Shown here: positions 29,913-33,685 of the stretch, piece after piece
Position numbering within the stretch: the first letter of the stretch is position 1
Layout of the letters: each line of letters starts with the position of its first letter
Source of the DNA: Bacteroidales bacterium
GTDB taxonomy: Bacteria; Bacteroidota; Bacteroidia; Bacteroidales; VadinHA17
Assembly (NCBI GenBank): GCA_027028505.1
Contig: JALVJE010000209.1
Span: 1-56,183, forward strand
Direction of reading: 5' to 3'
Length of the DNA: 56,183 bases
The notes under the pieces: model-generated
The model's database searches: none
What the model saw: only the letters and a program-made list of their open reading frames with translations
What the model was told of the DNA's origin: nothing
Made by a program: the position numbers and the translations under genes

Positions 29913-30503
29913 TTAAAGTATGATGACCTTGCCTTTTTTCTTATGGGTTTCAGGGTGATCTTTTCCCGGCGGGACCACCGGCACGGCCAGCGTGTCCTCG
30001 GGGAAGAGTTCGCCGGGCCCGGGGATACCGAAATGGCGGAACAGATCTTCGTCAGGCCACCTGCCCAAAGGCTCCATGAAACGGCGGAACAGCTCCTCCA
30101 TGTGACGGATGGCCGACGTGTCGGGGATGCCGAAGAAGAAAGGATCCAAATCCTCATCGAAGGGAGAAAAGATAAATCCCGGCAGGGAATCCGGCACCAG
30201 CATGCCCGGACCGAAATGCCAGCCGCCCGGTCCGGAGAAGAAACGCCTGAAGAAGGTGGTGTCATCACCCGCCAGCGTGTCTCCCGACGACCAGAACCAG
30301 GTATAGGTTGAATCGTAGCGGATGACATTCCCCTGATCATCCGTCTCCTTGTTGACCCGGATATGGATCTCCGGGCCTTTCAGCGTATCCGGCTCCTGCG
30401 CCCCGACCGAAAACGGAAACAGGGCACCCAGGAACAGTGCAGCCACCAGGGTCCTTCCGGACCCTCTTTTTGCCTTTGTCCCAAACCATGTTTTCCTTTT
30501 CAT
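29913..30503 (-). CDS. Secreted hypothetical protein
   Basis: Start reassigned to ATG 30503; signal peptide; IRVNKETDDQGNVIRYDSTYTW segment followed by an F/D/P/G-rich region. -7 box TATTTTTG at 30574-30581 on the minus strand. Confidence 0.7.
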   Translation of the reverse strand: MKRKTWFGTKAKRGSGRTLVAALFLGALFPFSVGAQEPDTLKGPEIHIRVNKETDDQGNVIRYDSTYTWFWSSGDTLAGDDTTFFRRFFSGPGGWHFGPGMLVPDSLPGFIFSPFDEDLDPFFFGIPDTSAIRHMEELFRRFMEPLGRWPDEDLFRHFGIPGPGELFPEDTLAVPVVPPGKDHPETHKKKGKVIIL

Positions 30504-30645
30504 AACACCGTTCTTTTTGGATCCAAACAGCGTCATTACTGCCGATCTCTCCCGGGCAACCGTAATGGCACGACAAAAATAAAAAGTTCGCTCTTTCGCT
30601 CTCCACGGCAGGATTTCATTTAACAAAATTTAACAGTTTGAGAAT

Positions 30646-30685
30646 AGTTGATAAGTTGAAAGGTTGAAAAGTTGAAGGGTTGATA
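30646..30685. repeat. Octamer tract (A/G)GTTGA(T/A)(A/G) x5
   Basis: Reverse complement of the TCAAC(C/T)TA family at 36058-36129. Confidence 0.8.
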
Positions 30686-30721
30686 TGTTTTATGGAATCA
30701 TATTTTGTTTTGGGAGTGGTA

Positions 30722-30944
30722 TAATTACGCGAGCGCAGCGAGTTAATTTCTACTAATTTCAGCTGCGTCAGCAGCTAAATTACGCGAGCGTTAGCGAGCT
30801 GATTTCTCCCTAATTTCACGAGCGATAGCGAGTTAATTTCCACTTAATTTCATACCGAGTCGGGATAAATTTCGTGAGGGCGTAGCCCGAACTAATTTCA
30901 GCTGCGTCAGCAGCTAAATTTCGCGAGCAAAGCGAGCTAATTTC
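30722..30944. repeat. Array of 12 TAATTTC-like punctuation repeats separated by short variable inserts
   Basis: TAATTTC/TAAATTTC/TAATTAC/TGATTTC recur 12 times; inserts include AGCTGCGTCAGCAGC x2 and GCGAGC(n)AGCGAG x4. Confidence 0.85.
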
Positions 30945-31002
30945 CCATCCTTTAAACCTTTTCCCTCTTTTTCCGTCCAATAAATACAATTATTTTTAAA
31001 AC

Positions 31003-32358
31003 ATGCAAGACCTTGCCGCCATACATCATCTTCTGGGGCGGGCCGCTTTCGGGCCGTCGTGGCGGGAGATGCCTGCTTACCTCTCCCGTACGCCGCAGGA
31101 GGTTGCAGAAAGTCTTTTCCGCGATGCGGCGCAATACAAGCCCCTGCAGGTGGTCCCTCCTCCCACGATGACCTGGCAGGAGCTGAAAGATCTGACACCG
31201 GAACAACGGAAAGCGCTGCGAAAGAAAGAGAGGGAACTGCTGGGCCGTCTGAACGCAGCCTGGCTGGAGAAGATGATCTCTGGCGAAGGGGTCCTGCGCG
31301 AGCGCATGACCTTCTTCTGGCACGATCATTTTGCCTGCCGCACACAGAATGCCTGGTTTGCCCAGGACCTGAACAACCGCCTGCGGCGGAACGCTCTGGG
31401 CAGCTTTCGCACGATGCTGAAAGAGGTGTCGGAGAGCGCGGCCATGATCCAGTTCCTCAACAACCAGCAGAACAAAAAAGCCCATCCCAACGAGAACTTC
31501 GCCCGCGAGGTGATGGAGCTCTTCACCCTGGGCATGGGGCATTACAGCGAAAAGGACATCAAGGAAGCCGCCCGAGCCTTTACCGGCTGGGGATTCAATC
31601 TGCAGGGAGACTTCATCTTCCGGAAAAAACTGCATGACTACGGCAACAAACAGTTCCTGGGACGCAGCGGCAACTTTGGCGGCGGGGAGATCCTGGAGAT
31701 CATCCTGGAGCAGAAACAGACCGCCCGGTTCATCACACAGAAGATCTTTCGTTATTTTGTCAACGAGCGGGTGGATGAAAAATATGCCGAAGAGCTGGCC
31801 ATGGACCTCTACCGGTCGGACTATAACATCGGCCGGCTGATGCACCGTCTTTTCACCGAAGAGCCTTTCTACGCTGAGGTGAACCGCCTGCGCCTGGTCA
31901 GGTCGCCTGTGGAGCTGCTGGCGGGCTACGGACGCCTGCTGCCGTTGCAGATCAGCAGCGGCAGGCCCTTGCTCAACCTGCAAAGGGCCATGGGACAGGT
32001 GCTCTTCTTCCCGCCCAACGTGGGAGGATGGCCCTACGGCACCAAATGGATCGACAGTAACACCCTGCCGCTGCGCATGCAACTGCCGGGAGGACTCTAC
32101 GCTGCCGGCAACAGCTACGGGACACAGAAAAAAGGAAAGAAACGCCCCCTTACCATGCACGTCGACTGGCCTGCCTTCGTGGAAAAGACCGGAGACATTC
32201 CGCAGGAACAGCTGGCCCTGCTGGTGCTAGGGAAACAGCCCGCTCCGGAGGAACAGAAACTGATCGATTATGCCACGGGCCGGGCGTCCGGCGATACCGA
32301 CCGCACGGCACGCCGCCTGGTGGCCTGGATGAGCATGCCGGAGTATCAGTTGGTATGA
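31003..32358 (+). CDS. DUF1800 family protein
   Basis: HLLGRAAFG, LRERMTFFWHDHF, R.NALGSF, AMIQFLNN, PNENFAREVMELFTLG, DIKEAARAFTGW and PPNVGGW. Confidence 0.92.
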   Translation: MQDLAAIHHLLGRAAFGPSWREMPAYLSRTPQEVAESLFRDAAQYKPLQVVPPPTMTWQELKDLTPEQRKALRKKERELLGRLNAAWLEKMISGEGVLRERMTFFWHDHFACRTQNAWFAQDLNNRLRRNALGSFRTMLKEVSESAAMIQFLNNQQNKKAHPNENFAREVMELFTLGMGHYSEKDIKEAARAFTGWGFNLQGDFIFRKKLHDYGNKQFLGRSGNFGGGEILEIILEQKQTARFITQKIFRYFVNERVDEKYAEELAMDLYRSDYNIGRLMHRLFTEEPFYAEVNRLRLVRSPVELLAGYGRLLPLQISSGRPLLNLQRAMGQVLFFPPNVGGWPYGTKWIDSNTLPLRMQLPGGLYAAGNSYGTQKKGKKRPLTMHVDWPAFVEKTGDIPQEQLALLVLGKQPAPEEQKLIDYATGRASGDTDRTARRLVAWMSMPEYQLV

Positions 32359-32461
32359 GGAAGTGTAGAGTGTGGAGTGTGGAGTGTGAAGTGTGGAGTG
32401 TGGAGTTTTTAGTTAAAAGTTAAAAGTGAGCTAAAGTTAAAAGTTGGGATATTAAGTTAGT

Positions 32462-33685
32462 ATGATTAGTATGAAAAGAAGGGGATTTATAGGGAAAATG
32501 ACAGCGGGGTCGGCGGGAGCGTTGTTCCTGCCGGGATGGCTTCAGGCAGCCCGGGCGGCCGGGTGGACGGATCCTTCTGCCCGGGACCAAAAGAAGCTGG
32601 TGGTCATCAAGCTCGCAGGCGGCAACGACGGACTGAACATGGTCGTGCCCTACGGAGACCCTCTCTATTACCGGGCCCGTCCTACCCTGGCCATACCGAA
32701 AGAACAGGTGATACAAGCCACGGACACCCAGGGCTTCAACCCGGTGATGAAAGGCATCGCGCAACTTTACCGGGAGAAAAAGGTCGCCGTGATCAACAAT
32801 GTGGGCTATCCCGATCCCAACCGCTCCCATTTCCGGTCGATGGACATCTGGGAGACAGCTTCCGGCGCCAGAGAGTACCTCCGCACCGGCTGGCTGGGCC
32901 GCTGGCTCGACACCCTGCCGCCTGCCCTACGCAAGCCTTACATGGCTATCGACGACGATGAGCAGCTGAGCCTGGCCCTCAAAGGCAAAACGATCACCGG
33001 CATCGCCGTGCGCGACCCTAAGAAGCTGCACAACACCCTGCAACGGGGATTCTTCCGGCCGCTGGCAGAGATGTGGCAGGGACAGCAGAGCGGCAACCCG
33101 TCACTCGACTACCTGCACCAGGTCATGGAGGAGACGGTCACCTCGGCCGACTATATATGGGATAAGACCAAAGACACGCAGACAACCGTTCCGCCGAAAC
33201 CCGGCGGGGATCCCCTGGCTGTCGCCCTGCAGACCATCGCCACCATGATAGAGGCGGATATGGCCACGCCTGTTTATTACACCACCCTGAACGGGTTTGA
33301 CACCCATGTGCGGGAGAGACCCCAACAAGACCGGTTACTGAAAGAATATTCGGAGGCTGTGACCGCTTTTGCACAGCGGCTGGAAAAAAAGGGCCTGCTA
33401 CAAAACACCCTGATCCTCACCTTCTCCGAATTCGGGCGGCGGGTGGCGGAAAATGCCAGCGGCGGCACCGACCACGGATGCGCCTCCAATGTGCTGATCG
33501 TGGGAGGAGGCCTGAAAAAACCCGGCATATACAACGAAGCTCCCAACCTGGCCCGCCTCGACCAGGGGGATCTGAGATATACCATCGATTTCCGCTCGGT
33601 CTATGCCACCCTGCTCGAAAAATGGCTCGATGCAGACGCCAGGAAGATCCTGGGGAGAAAATTCCCCGTTCTGGAATTTATTTGA
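32462..33685 (+). CDS. DUF1501 family protein with Tat signal
   Basis: MKRRGFI twin-arginine motif (alternative start at 32471); LAGGNDGLN, VGYPDPNRSHFRSMDIW, GFDTH, FSEFGRR, GGTDHG and DFRSVYA. Confidence 0.92.
   Translation: MISMKRRGFIGKMTAGSAGALFLPGWLQAARAAGWTDPSARDQKKLVVIKLAGGNDGLNMVVPYGDPLYYRARPTLAIPKEQVIQATDTQGFNPVMKGIAQLYREKKVAVINNVGYPDPNRSHFRSMDIWETASGAREYLRTGWLGRWLDTLPPALRKPYMAIDDDEQLSLALKGKTITGIAVRDPKKLHNTLQRGFFRPLAEMWQGQQSGNPSLDYLHQVMEETVTSADYIWDKTKDTQTTVPPKPGGDPLAVALQTIATMIEADMATPVYYTTLNGFDTHVRERPQQDRLLKEYSEAVTAFAQRLEKKGLLQNTLILTFSEFGRRVAENASGGTDHGCASNVLIVGGGLKKPGIYNEAPNLARLDQGDLRYTIDFRSVYATLLEKWLDADARKILGRKFPVLEFI

What the first reader, a model, noticed from the sequence alone, without database searches (positions are those of the whole stretch)
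30722..30944. Mini-array of 12 TAATTTC punctuation marks separating a small vocabulary of micro-cassettes
Seen, parsed in order: GCGAGCGCAGCGAGT, TAC, AGCTGCGTCAGCAGC, GCGAGCGTTAGCGAGC, TCCC, ACGAGCGATAGCGAGT, CACT, ATACCGAGTCGGGA, GTGAGGGCGTAGCCCGAAC, AGCTGCGTCAGCAGC, GCGAGCAAAGCGAGC, each bounded by TAATTTC or a close variant. Some inserts form 4-6 bp hairpins (AGCTGC/GCAGCT, GGGC/GCCC) and others are GCGAG direct repeats with variable centres. It sits in the divergent promoter gap between the Gld operon and DUF1800, and none of these modules recur elsewhere in the window. Inference: a repeat-insert architecture at much smaller scale than CRISPR, possibly grown by iterative insertion at TAATTTC, or a multi-operator or structured leader. 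I cannot assign it to a named family.
Basis: partly seen in the sequence, partly recalled or inferred. Interest (0 to 1): 0.62.

Follow-up and report, generated by a model that had tools for sequence, protein, structure and literature searches.

The report
Heptamer-punctuated mini-hairpin repeat array
The TAATTTC-punctuated array is real, but it is one of about 76 copies of a genus-restricted intergenic repeat made of tiny strand-specific hairpins joined by a fixed 7-base linker: a new variant of the REP/BIME type of bacterial repeat DNA, not a control element of the neighbouring genes.

Summary

The locus is not unique. The genome, an uncultured hydrothermal-vent Bacteroidales MAG, holds at least 76 such arrays with a shared vocabulary. 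Congeners hold from none to dozens. 550 other genomes sampled from the order and class show none.

The "GCGAG direct repeats" are in fact hairpins: two outer pairs, a tandem G.A/A.G, two inner pairs and a C-closed GNA or GNNA loop. Covariation supports them, and they fold on the TAATTTC strand only (G.A 291 versus C.T 2; G.T 48 versus A.C 15).

Arrays follow a grammar (I-S-P-I ... Q-T) and avoid genes. Between same-direction genes they run with transcription 34:6.

At this locus the sister species lacks the whole block. Two near-identical strains carry in-register collapses, to 1 and to 4 cassettes. Elsewhere, arrays keep their position across species while their content is reshuffled.

I found no Rfam match, no flanking RAYT gene, and no TIR or TSD.

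Best reading: a polar, hypervariable, dispensable mosaic repeat of the REP/BIME/BOX kind, probably co-transcribed. This scan had already noted the same mosaic in this genome, and similar arrays in other Bacteroidota.

The parts
30722..30944 (+). The array: 12 linkers (consensus WAATTWC; 7 exact TAATTTC) and 11 cassettes. Module string I-S-T-I-(S)-I-S-P-Q-T-I. One of the largest of about 76 arrays in the genome.
30729..30743 (+). Type-I mini-hairpin GCGA-GC-GCA-GC-GAGT: 2 outer pairs, tandem G.A/A.G, 2 inner pairs, GCA triloop closed by C-G.
30761..30776 (+). T-type hairpin AGCTGC-GTCA-GCAGCT, first copy. This type usually ends an array. Together with the flanking TAATTT and AAATTA it can form a 12-bp stem.
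30784..30799 (+). Type-I hairpin GCGAGC-GTTA-GCGAGC (GNNA tetraloop).
30818..30833 (+). Type-I hairpin ACGAGC-GATA-GCGAGT. The outer pair is A-T here instead of G-C.
30852..30866 (+). Degenerate P-type hairpin (family consensus ATCCCGAC-GCA-GTCGGGAT), preceded by a short CACT unit as P cassettes nearly always are.
30874..30892 (+). Q-type hairpin GTGA-GGGC-GTA-GCCC-GAAC (tandem G.A plus a 4-bp GC stem plus a GTA loop). 25-50 times the flank depth in metagenome contigs.
30900..30915 (+). T-type hairpin, second copy. It is the partner of the 30761 copy in the 139-nt in-register deletion seen in another strain.
30923..30937 (+). Type-I hairpin with an AAA loop. It is the partner of cassette 1 in the 194-nt collapse seen in another strain.
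30642..30683 (+). Tandem 8-nt repeats (GTTGAAAG type, about 5 units) just upstream. Also present, with other unit variants, in the sister species. Many arrays have such a 7-8-nt 'word' repeat on their 5' side.
30682..30952 (+). 271-nt block (unique 40-nt leader, the array, and 8 nt) that is missing at the orthologous site of sister species G001. The junction is ...GAAGGGTT|TAAACC..., with 2 nt (TT) shared by both edges.
30737..30930 (+). Stretch skipped in a strain from another sample (X2; flanks about 99% identical). The array is there reduced to the single cassette GCGAGCGCAGCGAGC.
30783..30921 (+). Stretch skipped in a strain from another study (X6). The joint lies between the two T-type copies and leaves 4 cassettes.
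30574..30581 (-). Canonical Bacteroidetes -7 box TATTTTTG of the gld-side operon. It lies inside a stretch of about 70 nt conserved across the genus and outside the array.
29913..30503 (-). Left neighbour: a 196-aa protein with an N-terminal signal-like segment and no Pfam hit, followed by gldA, gldF and gldG.
31003..32358 (+). Right neighbour: DUF1800 protein, followed by DUF1501. Not found in the ten other genomes of the genus.

Best explanation
The array is one copy of a lineage-specific, dispersed, modular intergenic repeat of the REP/BIME/BOX kind.

Its unit is a 15-19-nt mini-hairpin, or a 3-4-nt filler (TACT/TACC/CACT), followed by the 7-nt linker WAATTWC. All units point the same way.

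The hairpins fold only on the TAATTTC strand, so what is recognised or selected is a single strand. That strand is the sense strand of the neighbouring genes in most cases. The arrays lack promoters of their own. The most likely molecule is therefore the co-transcribed RNA of 3' UTRs and intercistronic gaps. There a string of very stable hairpins separated by AU-rich single-stranded linkers would act as mRNA punctuation: a barrier to 3' exonucleases and/or endonuclease entry sites, as shown for REP/BIME in Enterobacteria.

Arrays persist at a locus for long periods. Meanwhile their content is rapidly rewritten by in-register slippage, unequal recombination and gene conversion at the repeated linkers and cassettes.

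They are dispensable and are not a regulator of gld or DUF1800.

Shown here: the anatomy, copy number, strand-specific fold with covariation, grammar, polarity, genus restriction, and strain and species turnover.

Inferred only: transcription, the RNA-level effect, and the recombination mechanism.
For: - Copy number: at least 76 arrays share the linker and vocabulary. Hairpin cassettes occur almost only next to linkers.
- Hairpin shape, from 214 hairpin-size cassettes: 79% have G-N(N)-A loops and 90% have a C-G closing pair. Stem cells are 1026 Watson-Crick, 291 G.A/A.G at fixed positions, 48 G.T and 25 other. The complementary strand would carry 347 mismatches.
- Covariation: for example, pair 5-11 reads GC 21, CG 15 and AT 10. 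Pairing is 0.959, against 0.755 when 3' halves are swapped (0 of 500 swaps reach the observed value).
- Strand asymmetry: G.T 48 versus A.C 15 (p=4e-5); G.A 291 versus C.T 2.
- Polarity: 34 co-oriented versus 6 anti-oriented between same-direction genes (p=8e-6), with 17 convergent and 10 divergent. No array overlaps a gene call.
- Only 6 of 76 arrays have a -7 box upstream.
- Grammar: S to P occurs 36 times against P to S once; Q then T fall at the 3' end.
- Multi-cassette paralogy of up to 200 nt at 85-96% identity.
- Dispensable and fast-changing: the block is absent in G001 at this site, and there are in-register collapses in two strains.
- Arrays hold the same site with different content in G001 and in 5 species at the hutI locus.
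- Genus counts of the test pattern run from 0 to 51.
- Not found in 400 order-level and 150 class-level genomes.
- Background: GCGNAGC and GCGNNAGC are the extraordinarily stable mini-hairpin motifs (PMC13037366). REP/BIME biology is in PMC2817692 and PMC3116915.
Against: - No RNA data: no RNA run holding this organism was listed, so transcription is not shown.
- 16 of 67 classifiable arrays (10 divergent, including this one, and 6 anti-oriented) have no co-oriented gene upstream.
- The GNNA loops are mostly GTTA, GTCA and GCCA rather than the GNRA typical of RNA. The C-GNA-G and C-GNNA-G motifs are best known as DNA mini-hairpins, which favours a single-stranded DNA reading.
- Whole-array fold energies are only modestly better than shuffles (z -2.2 to -3.4).
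- How identical cassettes spread between distant arrays is not explained by slippage alone.
- Gene calls are home-made (ORFs plus a codon-usage score).
Confidence: 0.55

Rival explanations
1. Single-stranded-DNA micro-cassettes. Each hairpin plus TAATTTC would be a minimal mobile unit, inserted 3' of an existing TAATTTC by an HUH/Y1-type (IS200/IS605- or RAYT-like) or other ssDNA enzyme. Arrays would then grow by iterative insertion.
For: The fold is strand-specific with conserved non-Watson-Crick features, as in REP, IS608 ends and attC sites. The C-GNA-G and C-GNNA-G loops match the hyperstable DNA mini-hairpins (PMC13037366). Identical cassettes occur in many arrays. The genome encodes 2-3 Y1_Tnp proteins, and the three genus members without arrays have none. 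An element that carries its own target at its 3' end would produce exactly this head-to-tail pattern (inference).
Against: None of the 9 Y1_Tnp genes whose flanks were read, across 4 genomes, is flanked by TAATTTC arrays; each has its own different hairpins. G003 has arrays but no detected Y1_Tnp, while G002 and G009 have Y1_Tnp and almost no arrays. Array strand shows no bias relative to GC skew (39:37; a weak test on a fragmented MAG) but a strong bias with transcription, the opposite of what lagging-strand-targeting ssDNA elements show (PMC6006769). The strict order grammar and the multi-cassette paralogy argue that blocks are copied, not single cassettes. The observed strain differences are joints between repeated cassettes.
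Confidence: 0.17
2. Double-stranded-DNA protein-binding array. Phased AT-rich TAATTTC boxes (11- and 22-bp spacing) would bind a nucleoid-associated or architectural protein, or bend the DNA, organising intergenic DNA much as BIMEs bind IHF and gyrase.
For: 59% of linker-to-linker distances are 11, 22 or 33 bp (from the length table). Linker variants keep a palindromic AT core (AATT, TAATTA, AAATTT). Some arrays keep their position across species.
Against: 27% of spacings are 23 or 26 bp, so phasing is not kept. The stem covariation, the G.T over A.C excess and the G.A over C.T excess have no meaning in duplex DNA. Orientation follows transcription. Three congeners have no arrays at all.
Confidence: 0.1
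3. Locus-specific regulatory element: a multi-operator or structured 5' leader controlling DUF1800/DUF1501 or the divergent gld operon.
For: It lies in a 499-nt divergent gap, 58 nt upstream of the DUF1800 start and on its strand. No canonical -7 box for DUF1800 was found between the array and the start codon, so the array could be part of a 5' UTR.
Against: The same modules occur at about 75 unrelated loci in every kind of gap. The sister species lacks the block, and close strains carry 1 or 4 cassettes with the same flanking genes. The conserved gld promoter lies outside the array.
Confidence: 0.03
4. Assembly artefact, or a CRISPR-like adaptive array.
For: Short-read contigs break in the array. 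It has a repeat-insert look.
Against: Array-bearing contigs from four independent samples, and arrays in eight genomes of the genus, show the same architecture. The constant part is 7 nt, and the inserts are shared hairpins rather than unique spacers.
Confidence: 0.02

Closest known systems
REP sequences and BIMEs (bacterial interspersed mosaic elements) of Enterobacteria and Pseudomonas, with RAYT/TnpA-REP (PMC2817692, PMC3116915, PMC3733652)
   Same: Both are short GC-rich imperfect palindromes in high copy and strictly extragenic. Both are combined with conserved non-palindromic linker motifs into mosaic clusters of variable composition. Both are lineage-specific in sequence, hypervariable between strains, and lie in transcribed gaps where they can stabilise upstream mRNA.
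   Different: Here all hairpins point the same way, whereas BIMEs alternate. The linker is one fixed heptamer. The hairpins are much smaller (15-19 nt), with a fixed tandem G.A and GNA/GNNA loops. There is no GTAG or CGTC tag. No RAYT gene is flanked by them. Orientation follows transcription 34:6.
BOX elements of Streptococcus pneumoniae (boxA-boxB(n)-boxC) (own knowledge)
   Same: Both are ordered modular elements with a variable number of internal modules. Both are intergenic and predicted to fold as RNA.
   Different: BOX modules are 45-59 nt and of three fixed kinds. Here about six cassette classes of 4-19 nt are joined by a heptamer.
BrickBuilt MITE of Porphyromonas gingivalis (PMC4596501)
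   Same: Both come from the order Bacteroidales. Both are dispersed (19 copies in P. gingivalis) non-coding elements built round a tandem repeat of about 22-23 nt with leader and tail parts, and vary in copy number between strains.
   Different: BrickBuilt repeats one 23-nt unit without spacers and has terminal inverted repeats resembling those of IS elements. Here the units are heterogeneous hairpins, and no TIR or TSD is seen at the filled versus empty site.
Small dispersed repeats (SDR1-8) and STRR heptamer repeats of Nostoc punctiforme (Elhai et al. 2008, Genome Res 18:1484; cited in PMC3116915; paper not held, content from own knowledge)
   Same: Both are very small (about 20-27 nt) hairpin-forming repeats with no known enzyme. 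Both are embedded in intergenic regions rich in 7-8-nt tandem 'word' repeats, with presence/absence differences between relatives.
   Different: SDRs are mostly solitary or nested, not strung on a constant linker in one direction. They come from a different phylum and have different sequences.
Mini-hairpin DNA d(GCGNAGC)/d(GCGNNAGC) (PMC13037366) and the r(GGCGAGCC)2 tandem sheared G.A duplex (own knowledge)
   Same: The inner part of the type-I cassettes is literally GC-GNA-GC or GC-GNNA-GC, and the arms are GCGAGC/GCGAGC. These are the two textbook motifs of unusually stable small nucleic-acid structures.
   Different: Those are structural motifs, not genomic elements. Their known natural sites are phage or plasmid priming sites and N4 promoters, as single copies.
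Earlier notes of this scan
   Same: e1-5261364 and e1-2214516 describe the same mosaic in this genome. e1-5263218 describes TATTTC-type hexamer-punctuated strand-specific mini-hairpins in Algoriphagus. e1-4646039 and e1-4847657 describe polar hairpin repeats in rumen Bacteroidales. All are hairpin-plus-word repeat mosaics of Bacteroidota, apparently undescribed in the literature.
   Different: Apart from the two notes on this genome, those families have other linkers, other hairpins and other hosts. I did not test them.

Membership tests
REP/BIME | Short imperfect palindromes, high copy number, extragenic | tested here: met
   214 hairpin cassettes in 76 arrays; none overlaps a gene call
REP/BIME | Conserved 5' GTAG or CGTC tetranucleotide tag next to the palindrome (PMC3733652) | tested here: not met
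   Cassettes are flanked by WAATTWC on both sides; there is no GTAG or CGTC tag
REP/BIME | Palindromic units in alternating orientation within a cluster (PMC2817692) | tested here: not met
   All units of an array lie on one strand; G.A 291 versus C.T 2
REP/BIME | A RAYT (Y1 transposase) gene flanked by the same repeats | tested here: not met
   3 Y1_Tnp loci in G000 and 6 in G001, G004 and G010 are flanked by other hairpins, never by TAATTTC arrays
MITE (including BrickBuilt) | Terminal inverted repeats and target-site duplication | tested here: not met
   Filled site (G000) versus empty site (G001): only 2 nt (TT) are shared at the edges, and the ends are not inverted repeats. One locus only.
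MITE (including BrickBuilt) | Internal tandem repeat of one unit with conserved leader and tail | tested here: inconclusive
   Units are heterogeneous. 5' sides carry several kinds of word repeats. 20 of 76 arrays end with a GCTGC-type hairpin, often followed by TAATGAC
CRISPR | Constant repeat of 23-50 nt alternating with unique spacers of similar length | tested here: not met
   The constant part is 7 nt. Inserts of 3-19 nt come from a shared pool and many recur 4-40 times
Rfam families (including Acido-Lenti-1, RF01687) | Score at or above the family's gathering threshold | tested here: not met
   This array and 7 others: best hits 19-27 bits against thresholds of 48-100 bits, in unrelated families
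Nostoc-type small dispersed repeats | 20-27-nt hairpin repeats, dispersed singly or nested, associated with heptamer arrays | tested here: inconclusive
   Size and the association with 7-8-nt repeats fit. Cassettes are not found solitary. The paper is not held.
Operator array or structured leader of the neighbouring genes | Conserved with the regulated genes and specific to the locus | tested here: not met
   Absent in G001, collapsed in strains X2 and X6, and present at about 75 unrelated loci

The most novel reading that the evidence does not exclude
The arrays are not junk but a dedicated single-strand 'cassette' system. In this reading, loci fixed in position are continually rewritten with hairpin modules from a genome-wide pool by an as yet unidentified enzyme acting at TAATTTC. 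Alternatively, they would be read as RNA by a specific hairpin-binding protein that sets the fate of the neighbouring cistrons. Either would be a new kind of programmable intergenic punctuation, specific to one Bacteroidales genus but with analogues (other linkers) across Bacteroidota.
Probability: 0.12. Interest if true: 0.75.

Novelty: new variant of a known kind. Interest (0 to 1): 0.4.

Why it matters
If the reading holds, this family shows that REP/BIME-like repeat DNA exists in Bacteroidales in a distinct form. That form is one-directional strings of the smallest known hyperstable hairpin motifs on a fixed heptamer linker. It is polar with transcription, has no RAYT partner, and its position is conserved while its content turns over quickly.

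Practical consequences:
- Such arrays break short-read assemblies.
- They mark synteny break points.
- They could serve as very fine strain markers in vent metagenomes.

The open question is how identical 15-19-nt cassettes spread between arrays without a known enzyme. It is the same question left open for cyanobacterial SDRs. The clean grammar here makes it testable.

Tried and rejected
- Rfam at permissive thresholds, on this array and 7 others: nothing.
- RAYT/Y1 transposase link: the genes exist but are flanked by other repeats.
- Four-helix-bundle (PF05635, Avd-like) gene link. One orthologous gene between hutI and ftcD is flanked by inverted arrays in five species. The other 23 PF05635 genes of the genus are not. 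The link is therefore to that locus, not to the protein family.
- Replication-strand bias: none against GC skew (39:37). The test is weak on a 275-contig MAG in which coding strand and skew are also unrelated.
- RNA evidence: no RNA run was listed.
- Whole-array folding: the minimum-free-energy structures do not reproduce the cassette hairpins well, and the z-scores are modest. Nearest-neighbour models are known to underrate these mini-hairpins (PMC13037366).
- Own promoters: only 6 of 76 arrays have a -7 box upstream.
- Wider distribution: exact-linker patterns found no hairpin arrays in 400 order-level and 150 class-level genomes. Arrays with other linkers would be missed by these patterns.
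- The orthologue of DUF1800 was not found in the genus, so the right flank could not be compared. Exact-protein look-ups gave one short contig that breaks in the array.
- Literature search for TAATTTC repeats gave nothing relevant.
- Elhai et al. 2008 could not be read.
Full report
**1. Observation.**
There are 12 punctuation marks: 7 exact TAATTTC plus TAATTAC, TAAATTAC, TGATTTC and two TAAATTTC. They separate 11 inserts.

Only 11 exact TAATTTC words exist in the whole 56-kb window on both strands, and 7 of them lie here, all on the + strand. Shuffles give 6.7 per window. About 0.013 are therefore expected in 223 nt, which puts the cluster far beyond chance.

Tandem Repeats Finder sees only a 34-nt period over part of the stretch, because the inserts differ in length.

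The flanking genes are as stated:
- On the - strand: a 196-aa signal-bearing protein (29913-30503), then gldA, gldF and gldG.
- On the + strand: DUF1800 (31003-32358) and DUF1501.

**2. It is not unique.**
The window is contig C209 of a 3.38-Mb, 275-contig, 53% GC assembly. The organism occurs in hydrothermal-vent metagenomes. Earlier notes of this scan call it an uncultured Bacteroidales bacterium.

A simple census (at least 3 linker words, each within 75 nt of the next) finds 76 arrays. They hold 415 of the genome's 995 linker-like words and 8.4 kb in all. The mean array is 110 nt, and the window's array is among the largest.

The same inserts recur:
- TACT 40 times, TACC 24 times, CACT 12 times.
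- GCGACCGAAGGGAGC, GTGAGGGCGCAGCCCGAAC and GTCCCGACGCAGTCGGGGC 7 times each, and so on.

Compared with the other arrays, the repeated part of the window ends exactly at 30722 and 30944.

**3. What the cassettes are.**
If the linker is taken as the 7-mer WAATTWC, 214 cassettes are of hairpin size:
- 79% have a G-N-A or G-NN-A loop.
- 90% have a C-G closing pair.
- Of 1390 stem cells, 1026 are Watson-Crick and 291 are G.A or A.G at two fixed positions (third and fourth from the loop). A further 48 are G.T and only 25 are other mismatches.

The 'GCGAG direct repeats' are thus hairpins of the form NY-GA-NN-[GNA or GNNA]-N'N'-GA-RN'. Covariation proves it. GCGA-GC..GC-GAGC, GCGA-AC..GT-GAGC and GCGA-CC..GG-GAGC all occur. 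In the 49 distinct 15-mers:
- pair 5-11 is GC 21, CG 15, AT 10;
- pair 1-15 is GC 30, AT 13;
- pair 2-14 is CG 27, TA 12, GC 5.

In some cassettes the G.A/A.G positions are replaced by Watson-Crick pairs. Swapping 3' halves among cassettes lowers pairing from 0.959 to 0.755, and 0 of 500 swaps reach the observed value.

The fold belongs to one strand only: G.A/A.G 291 against C.T/T.C 2, and G.T 48 against A.C 15 (p=4e-5).

The inner GC-GNA-GC and GC-GNNA-GC are literally the 'extraordinarily stable mini-hairpin' motifs (PMC13037366). The arms GCGAGC/GCGAGC are the classic tandem sheared G.A context (own knowledge).

Nearest-neighbour folding of the whole array gives only modest z-scores. DNA gives -3.4 on the + strand and -2.35 on the - strand. 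RNA gives -2.2 on + and -1.3 on -.

**4. Grammar.**
I coded the cassettes as follows:
- S: short filler.
- I: type-I hairpin.
- P: CCCGAC type.
- Q: GAGGGC type.
- T: GCTGC type.

With this coding the order is not free. S to P occurs 36 times against P to S once. I-S-P-I recurs. Q lies near the 3' end and T ends 20 of 76 arrays, often followed by TAATGAC.

The window's array reads I-S-T-I-(S)-I-S-P-Q-T-I. It looks like two canonical strings fused.

Arrays share multi-cassette stretches of up to 200 nt at 85-96% identity. On their 5' side many have 7-8-nt or 12-nt 'word' tandem repeats. Here that is (GTTGAAAG)n at 30642-30683.

The 11-nt unit TAATTTC-TACY resembles the GAATGAC-TATC units that follow some arrays. 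The arrays may therefore have grown from an 11-mer minisatellite whose 4-nt slot became occupied by hairpins. This is inference.

**5. Where arrays sit.**
I called genes with home-made ORF calls scored by codon usage (2454 genes, 86% coding).
- No array overlaps a gene.
- 40 arrays lie between same-direction genes: 34 run with the genes and 6 against (p=8e-6).
- 17 lie in convergent gaps and 10 in divergent gaps.
- The median distance is 257 nt from the upstream gene and 73 nt to the downstream gene.
- Only 6 of 76 have a canonical Bacteroidetes -7 box (TAnnTTTG) within 200 nt upstream, and 10 have one within 120 nt downstream.

Array strand is unrelated to GC skew (39:37). That test is weak on this assembly.

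**6. Turnover at this locus.**
Across the genus, the gld-side promoter region is conserved, including the only canonical -7 box of the gap (TATTTTTG, 30581-30574 on the - strand). It is conserved up to about 30640, and beyond that every species differs.

The sister species G001 (GldA 98% identical; DNA about 91% at other loci) keeps the 8-nt repeats. It then jumps straight from ...GAAGGGTT to TAAACC... It therefore lacks 30682-30952: the 40-nt unique leader, the whole array and 8 nt. Only TT is shared at the edges.

Public contigs from other samples show two more states:
- A strain about 99% identical in the flanks joins 30736 to 30931, leaving one cassette (GCGAGCGCAGCGAGC).
- A strain from another study joins 30782 to 30922, between the two T-type copies, leaving four cassettes.

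Both joints are in register with the cassettes. Cassette depth is 25-50 times flank depth. Contigs of the source sample break inside the array, so the internal order in this strain rests on the MAG assembly.

**7. Turnover elsewhere.**
Two other arrays (C138:12889 and C138:27031) have arrays at the orthologous sites of G001. Orientation and terminal module are the same, but the internal cassettes are entirely different.

At one locus, two arrays in inverted orientation flank a 135-aa four-helix-bundle gene (PF05635), in the order hutI, array, 4HB gene, array, ftcD. This holds in five species, including two that have almost no other arrays, again with different content in each. So position can be old while content is young.

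The other 23 PF05635 genes of the genus have no such flanks.

**8. Distribution.**
The pattern TAATTTC-N4-TAATTTC occurs as follows in the genus:

| Genome | Count |
|---|---|
| G000 | 51 |
| G001 | 31 |
| G010 | 22 |
| G004 | 16 |
| G003 | 9 |
| G002, G007 | 2 each |
| G009 | 1 |
| G005, G006, G008 | 0 |

Outside the genus the count is at most 1 per genome, equal to the reversed-pattern control.

Species share the grammar and part of the vocabulary, and also have hairpins of their own.

Patterns for hairpin-sized spacing found no such arrays in 400 genomes of the order or 150 of the class. Arrays with other linkers would be missed. One class-level genome (G514) is flagged as unpublished; it contributed only a negative.

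**9. What it is not.**
- No Rfam family matches.
- It is not CRISPR-like: the constant part is 7 nt and the inserts are shared, structured and ordered.
- It is not a classical REP/BIME: there is no GTAG or CGTC tag, no alternating orientation, and none of nine Y1_Tnp genes whose flanks were read in four genomes is flanked by these arrays.
- It is not a classical MITE: no TIR or TSD appears at the filled versus empty site.
- It is not a gld or DUF1800 operator or leader (sections 5 and 6).

**10. How it most likely works.**
The facts fit a dispensable, polar, modular repeat of the REP/BIME/BOX kind.

Selection, or the copying process, sees one folded strand. That strand is the sense strand in 85% of same-direction gaps, and the arrays have no promoters of their own. 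I therefore take the co-transcribed RNA as the most likely active form. It would be a row of very stable small hairpins separated by AU-rich single-stranded UAAUUUC, acting as mRNA punctuation: a 3'-exonuclease block and/or an endonuclease entry site.

Content changes by slippage, unequal recombination and gene conversion at linkers and repeated cassettes. I put this at 0.55.

The main rival (0.17) is a single-stranded-DNA cassette mechanism with an unknown HUH-type enzyme. The DNA-like loop repertoire (GNA; GTTA, GTCA and GCCA rather than GNRA) and the spread of identical cassettes favour it. The transcription polarity, the block-wise paralogy and the lack of a partner gene count against it.

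A duplex-DNA architectural role (0.10) is hard to square with the strand asymmetry.

**11. Relation to earlier notes of this scan.**
The same mosaic was already noted in this genome (e1-5261364, e1-2214516). Similar hairpin-plus-word arrays were noted in other Bacteroidota (e1-5263218, e1-4646039, e1-4847657, e1-4327256).

My census contradicts the statement in e1-2214516 that the GAAATTAG-headed hairpin cluster type exists at one locus only.

**12. Verdict.**
This is a new variant of a known kind. Interest is moderate: a clean and unusually regular example, with an open copying mechanism, but dispensable and of a class this scan has met repeatedly.

Noticed in passing
G000:C236:41570-42368 (locus L041 1271-2069); orthologues L043-L046: A 135-aa four-helix-bundle protein gene (PF05635, 23S-rRNA-IVS/Avd-like) sits between hutI and ftcD. 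It is flanked by two TAATTTC arrays in inverted orientation. The arrangement is conserved in five species, including two that have almost no other arrays, and the cassette content differs in each. This may be the oldest array locus of the genus.
   Followed up: partly
G000:C206:6950-7480: The second PF05635 gene of the genome is flanked by inverted heptamer tandem repeats: the GTTTCAG type on one side and the CATGAAA/CCTGAAA type on the other. These are not TAATTTC arrays.
   Followed up: no
G000:C165:1-1586 and G000:C75:9840-11587 (L007, L008): Two 151-aa Y1_Tnp (RAYT/IS200-like) genes are each flanked on both sides by their own families of GC hairpins (for example GCCCCGAAGGGGC and CTCCGGGCNNCGCCCGGAG). 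The spacers between those hairpins again contain GCGTTAGC/GCGTCAGC-type mini-hairpins. These look like genuine REP-RAYT systems, distinct from the arrays.
   Followed up: partly
window 30560-30640: A stretch of about 70 nt is conserved across the genus upstream of the gld-side operon. It holds the -7 box TATTTTTG, a duplicated TTCGCTCT, and CATTTAACAAAATTTAACAG. Synteny ends right after it: each species has different genes beyond this point, so the array sits at a rearrangement break point.
   Followed up: partly
window 31003-33685: The DUF1800/DUF1501 gene pair was not found in any of the ten other genomes of the genus with the DUF1800 protein as query. It is probably accessory DNA in this species.
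   Followed up: no
window 29913-30503 versus L013: The 196-aa signal-bearing protein upstream of gldA is present in most congeners but is missing at the orthologous place in the sister species G001.
   Followed up: no
window 30642-30683: The 8-nt tandem repeat (GTTGAAAG type) is shared with G001 but has different unit variants there (GTTGATGA twice, GTTGAAAA, GTTGAAGG). This is another fast-evolving 'word' repeat of the same mosaic.
   Followed up: no
G001:C320:1273-7031 versus G000:C138:12769-12997: Next to an orthologous array, G001 carries about 5.7 kb that G000 lacks. This is another synteny break beside an array.
   Followed up: no
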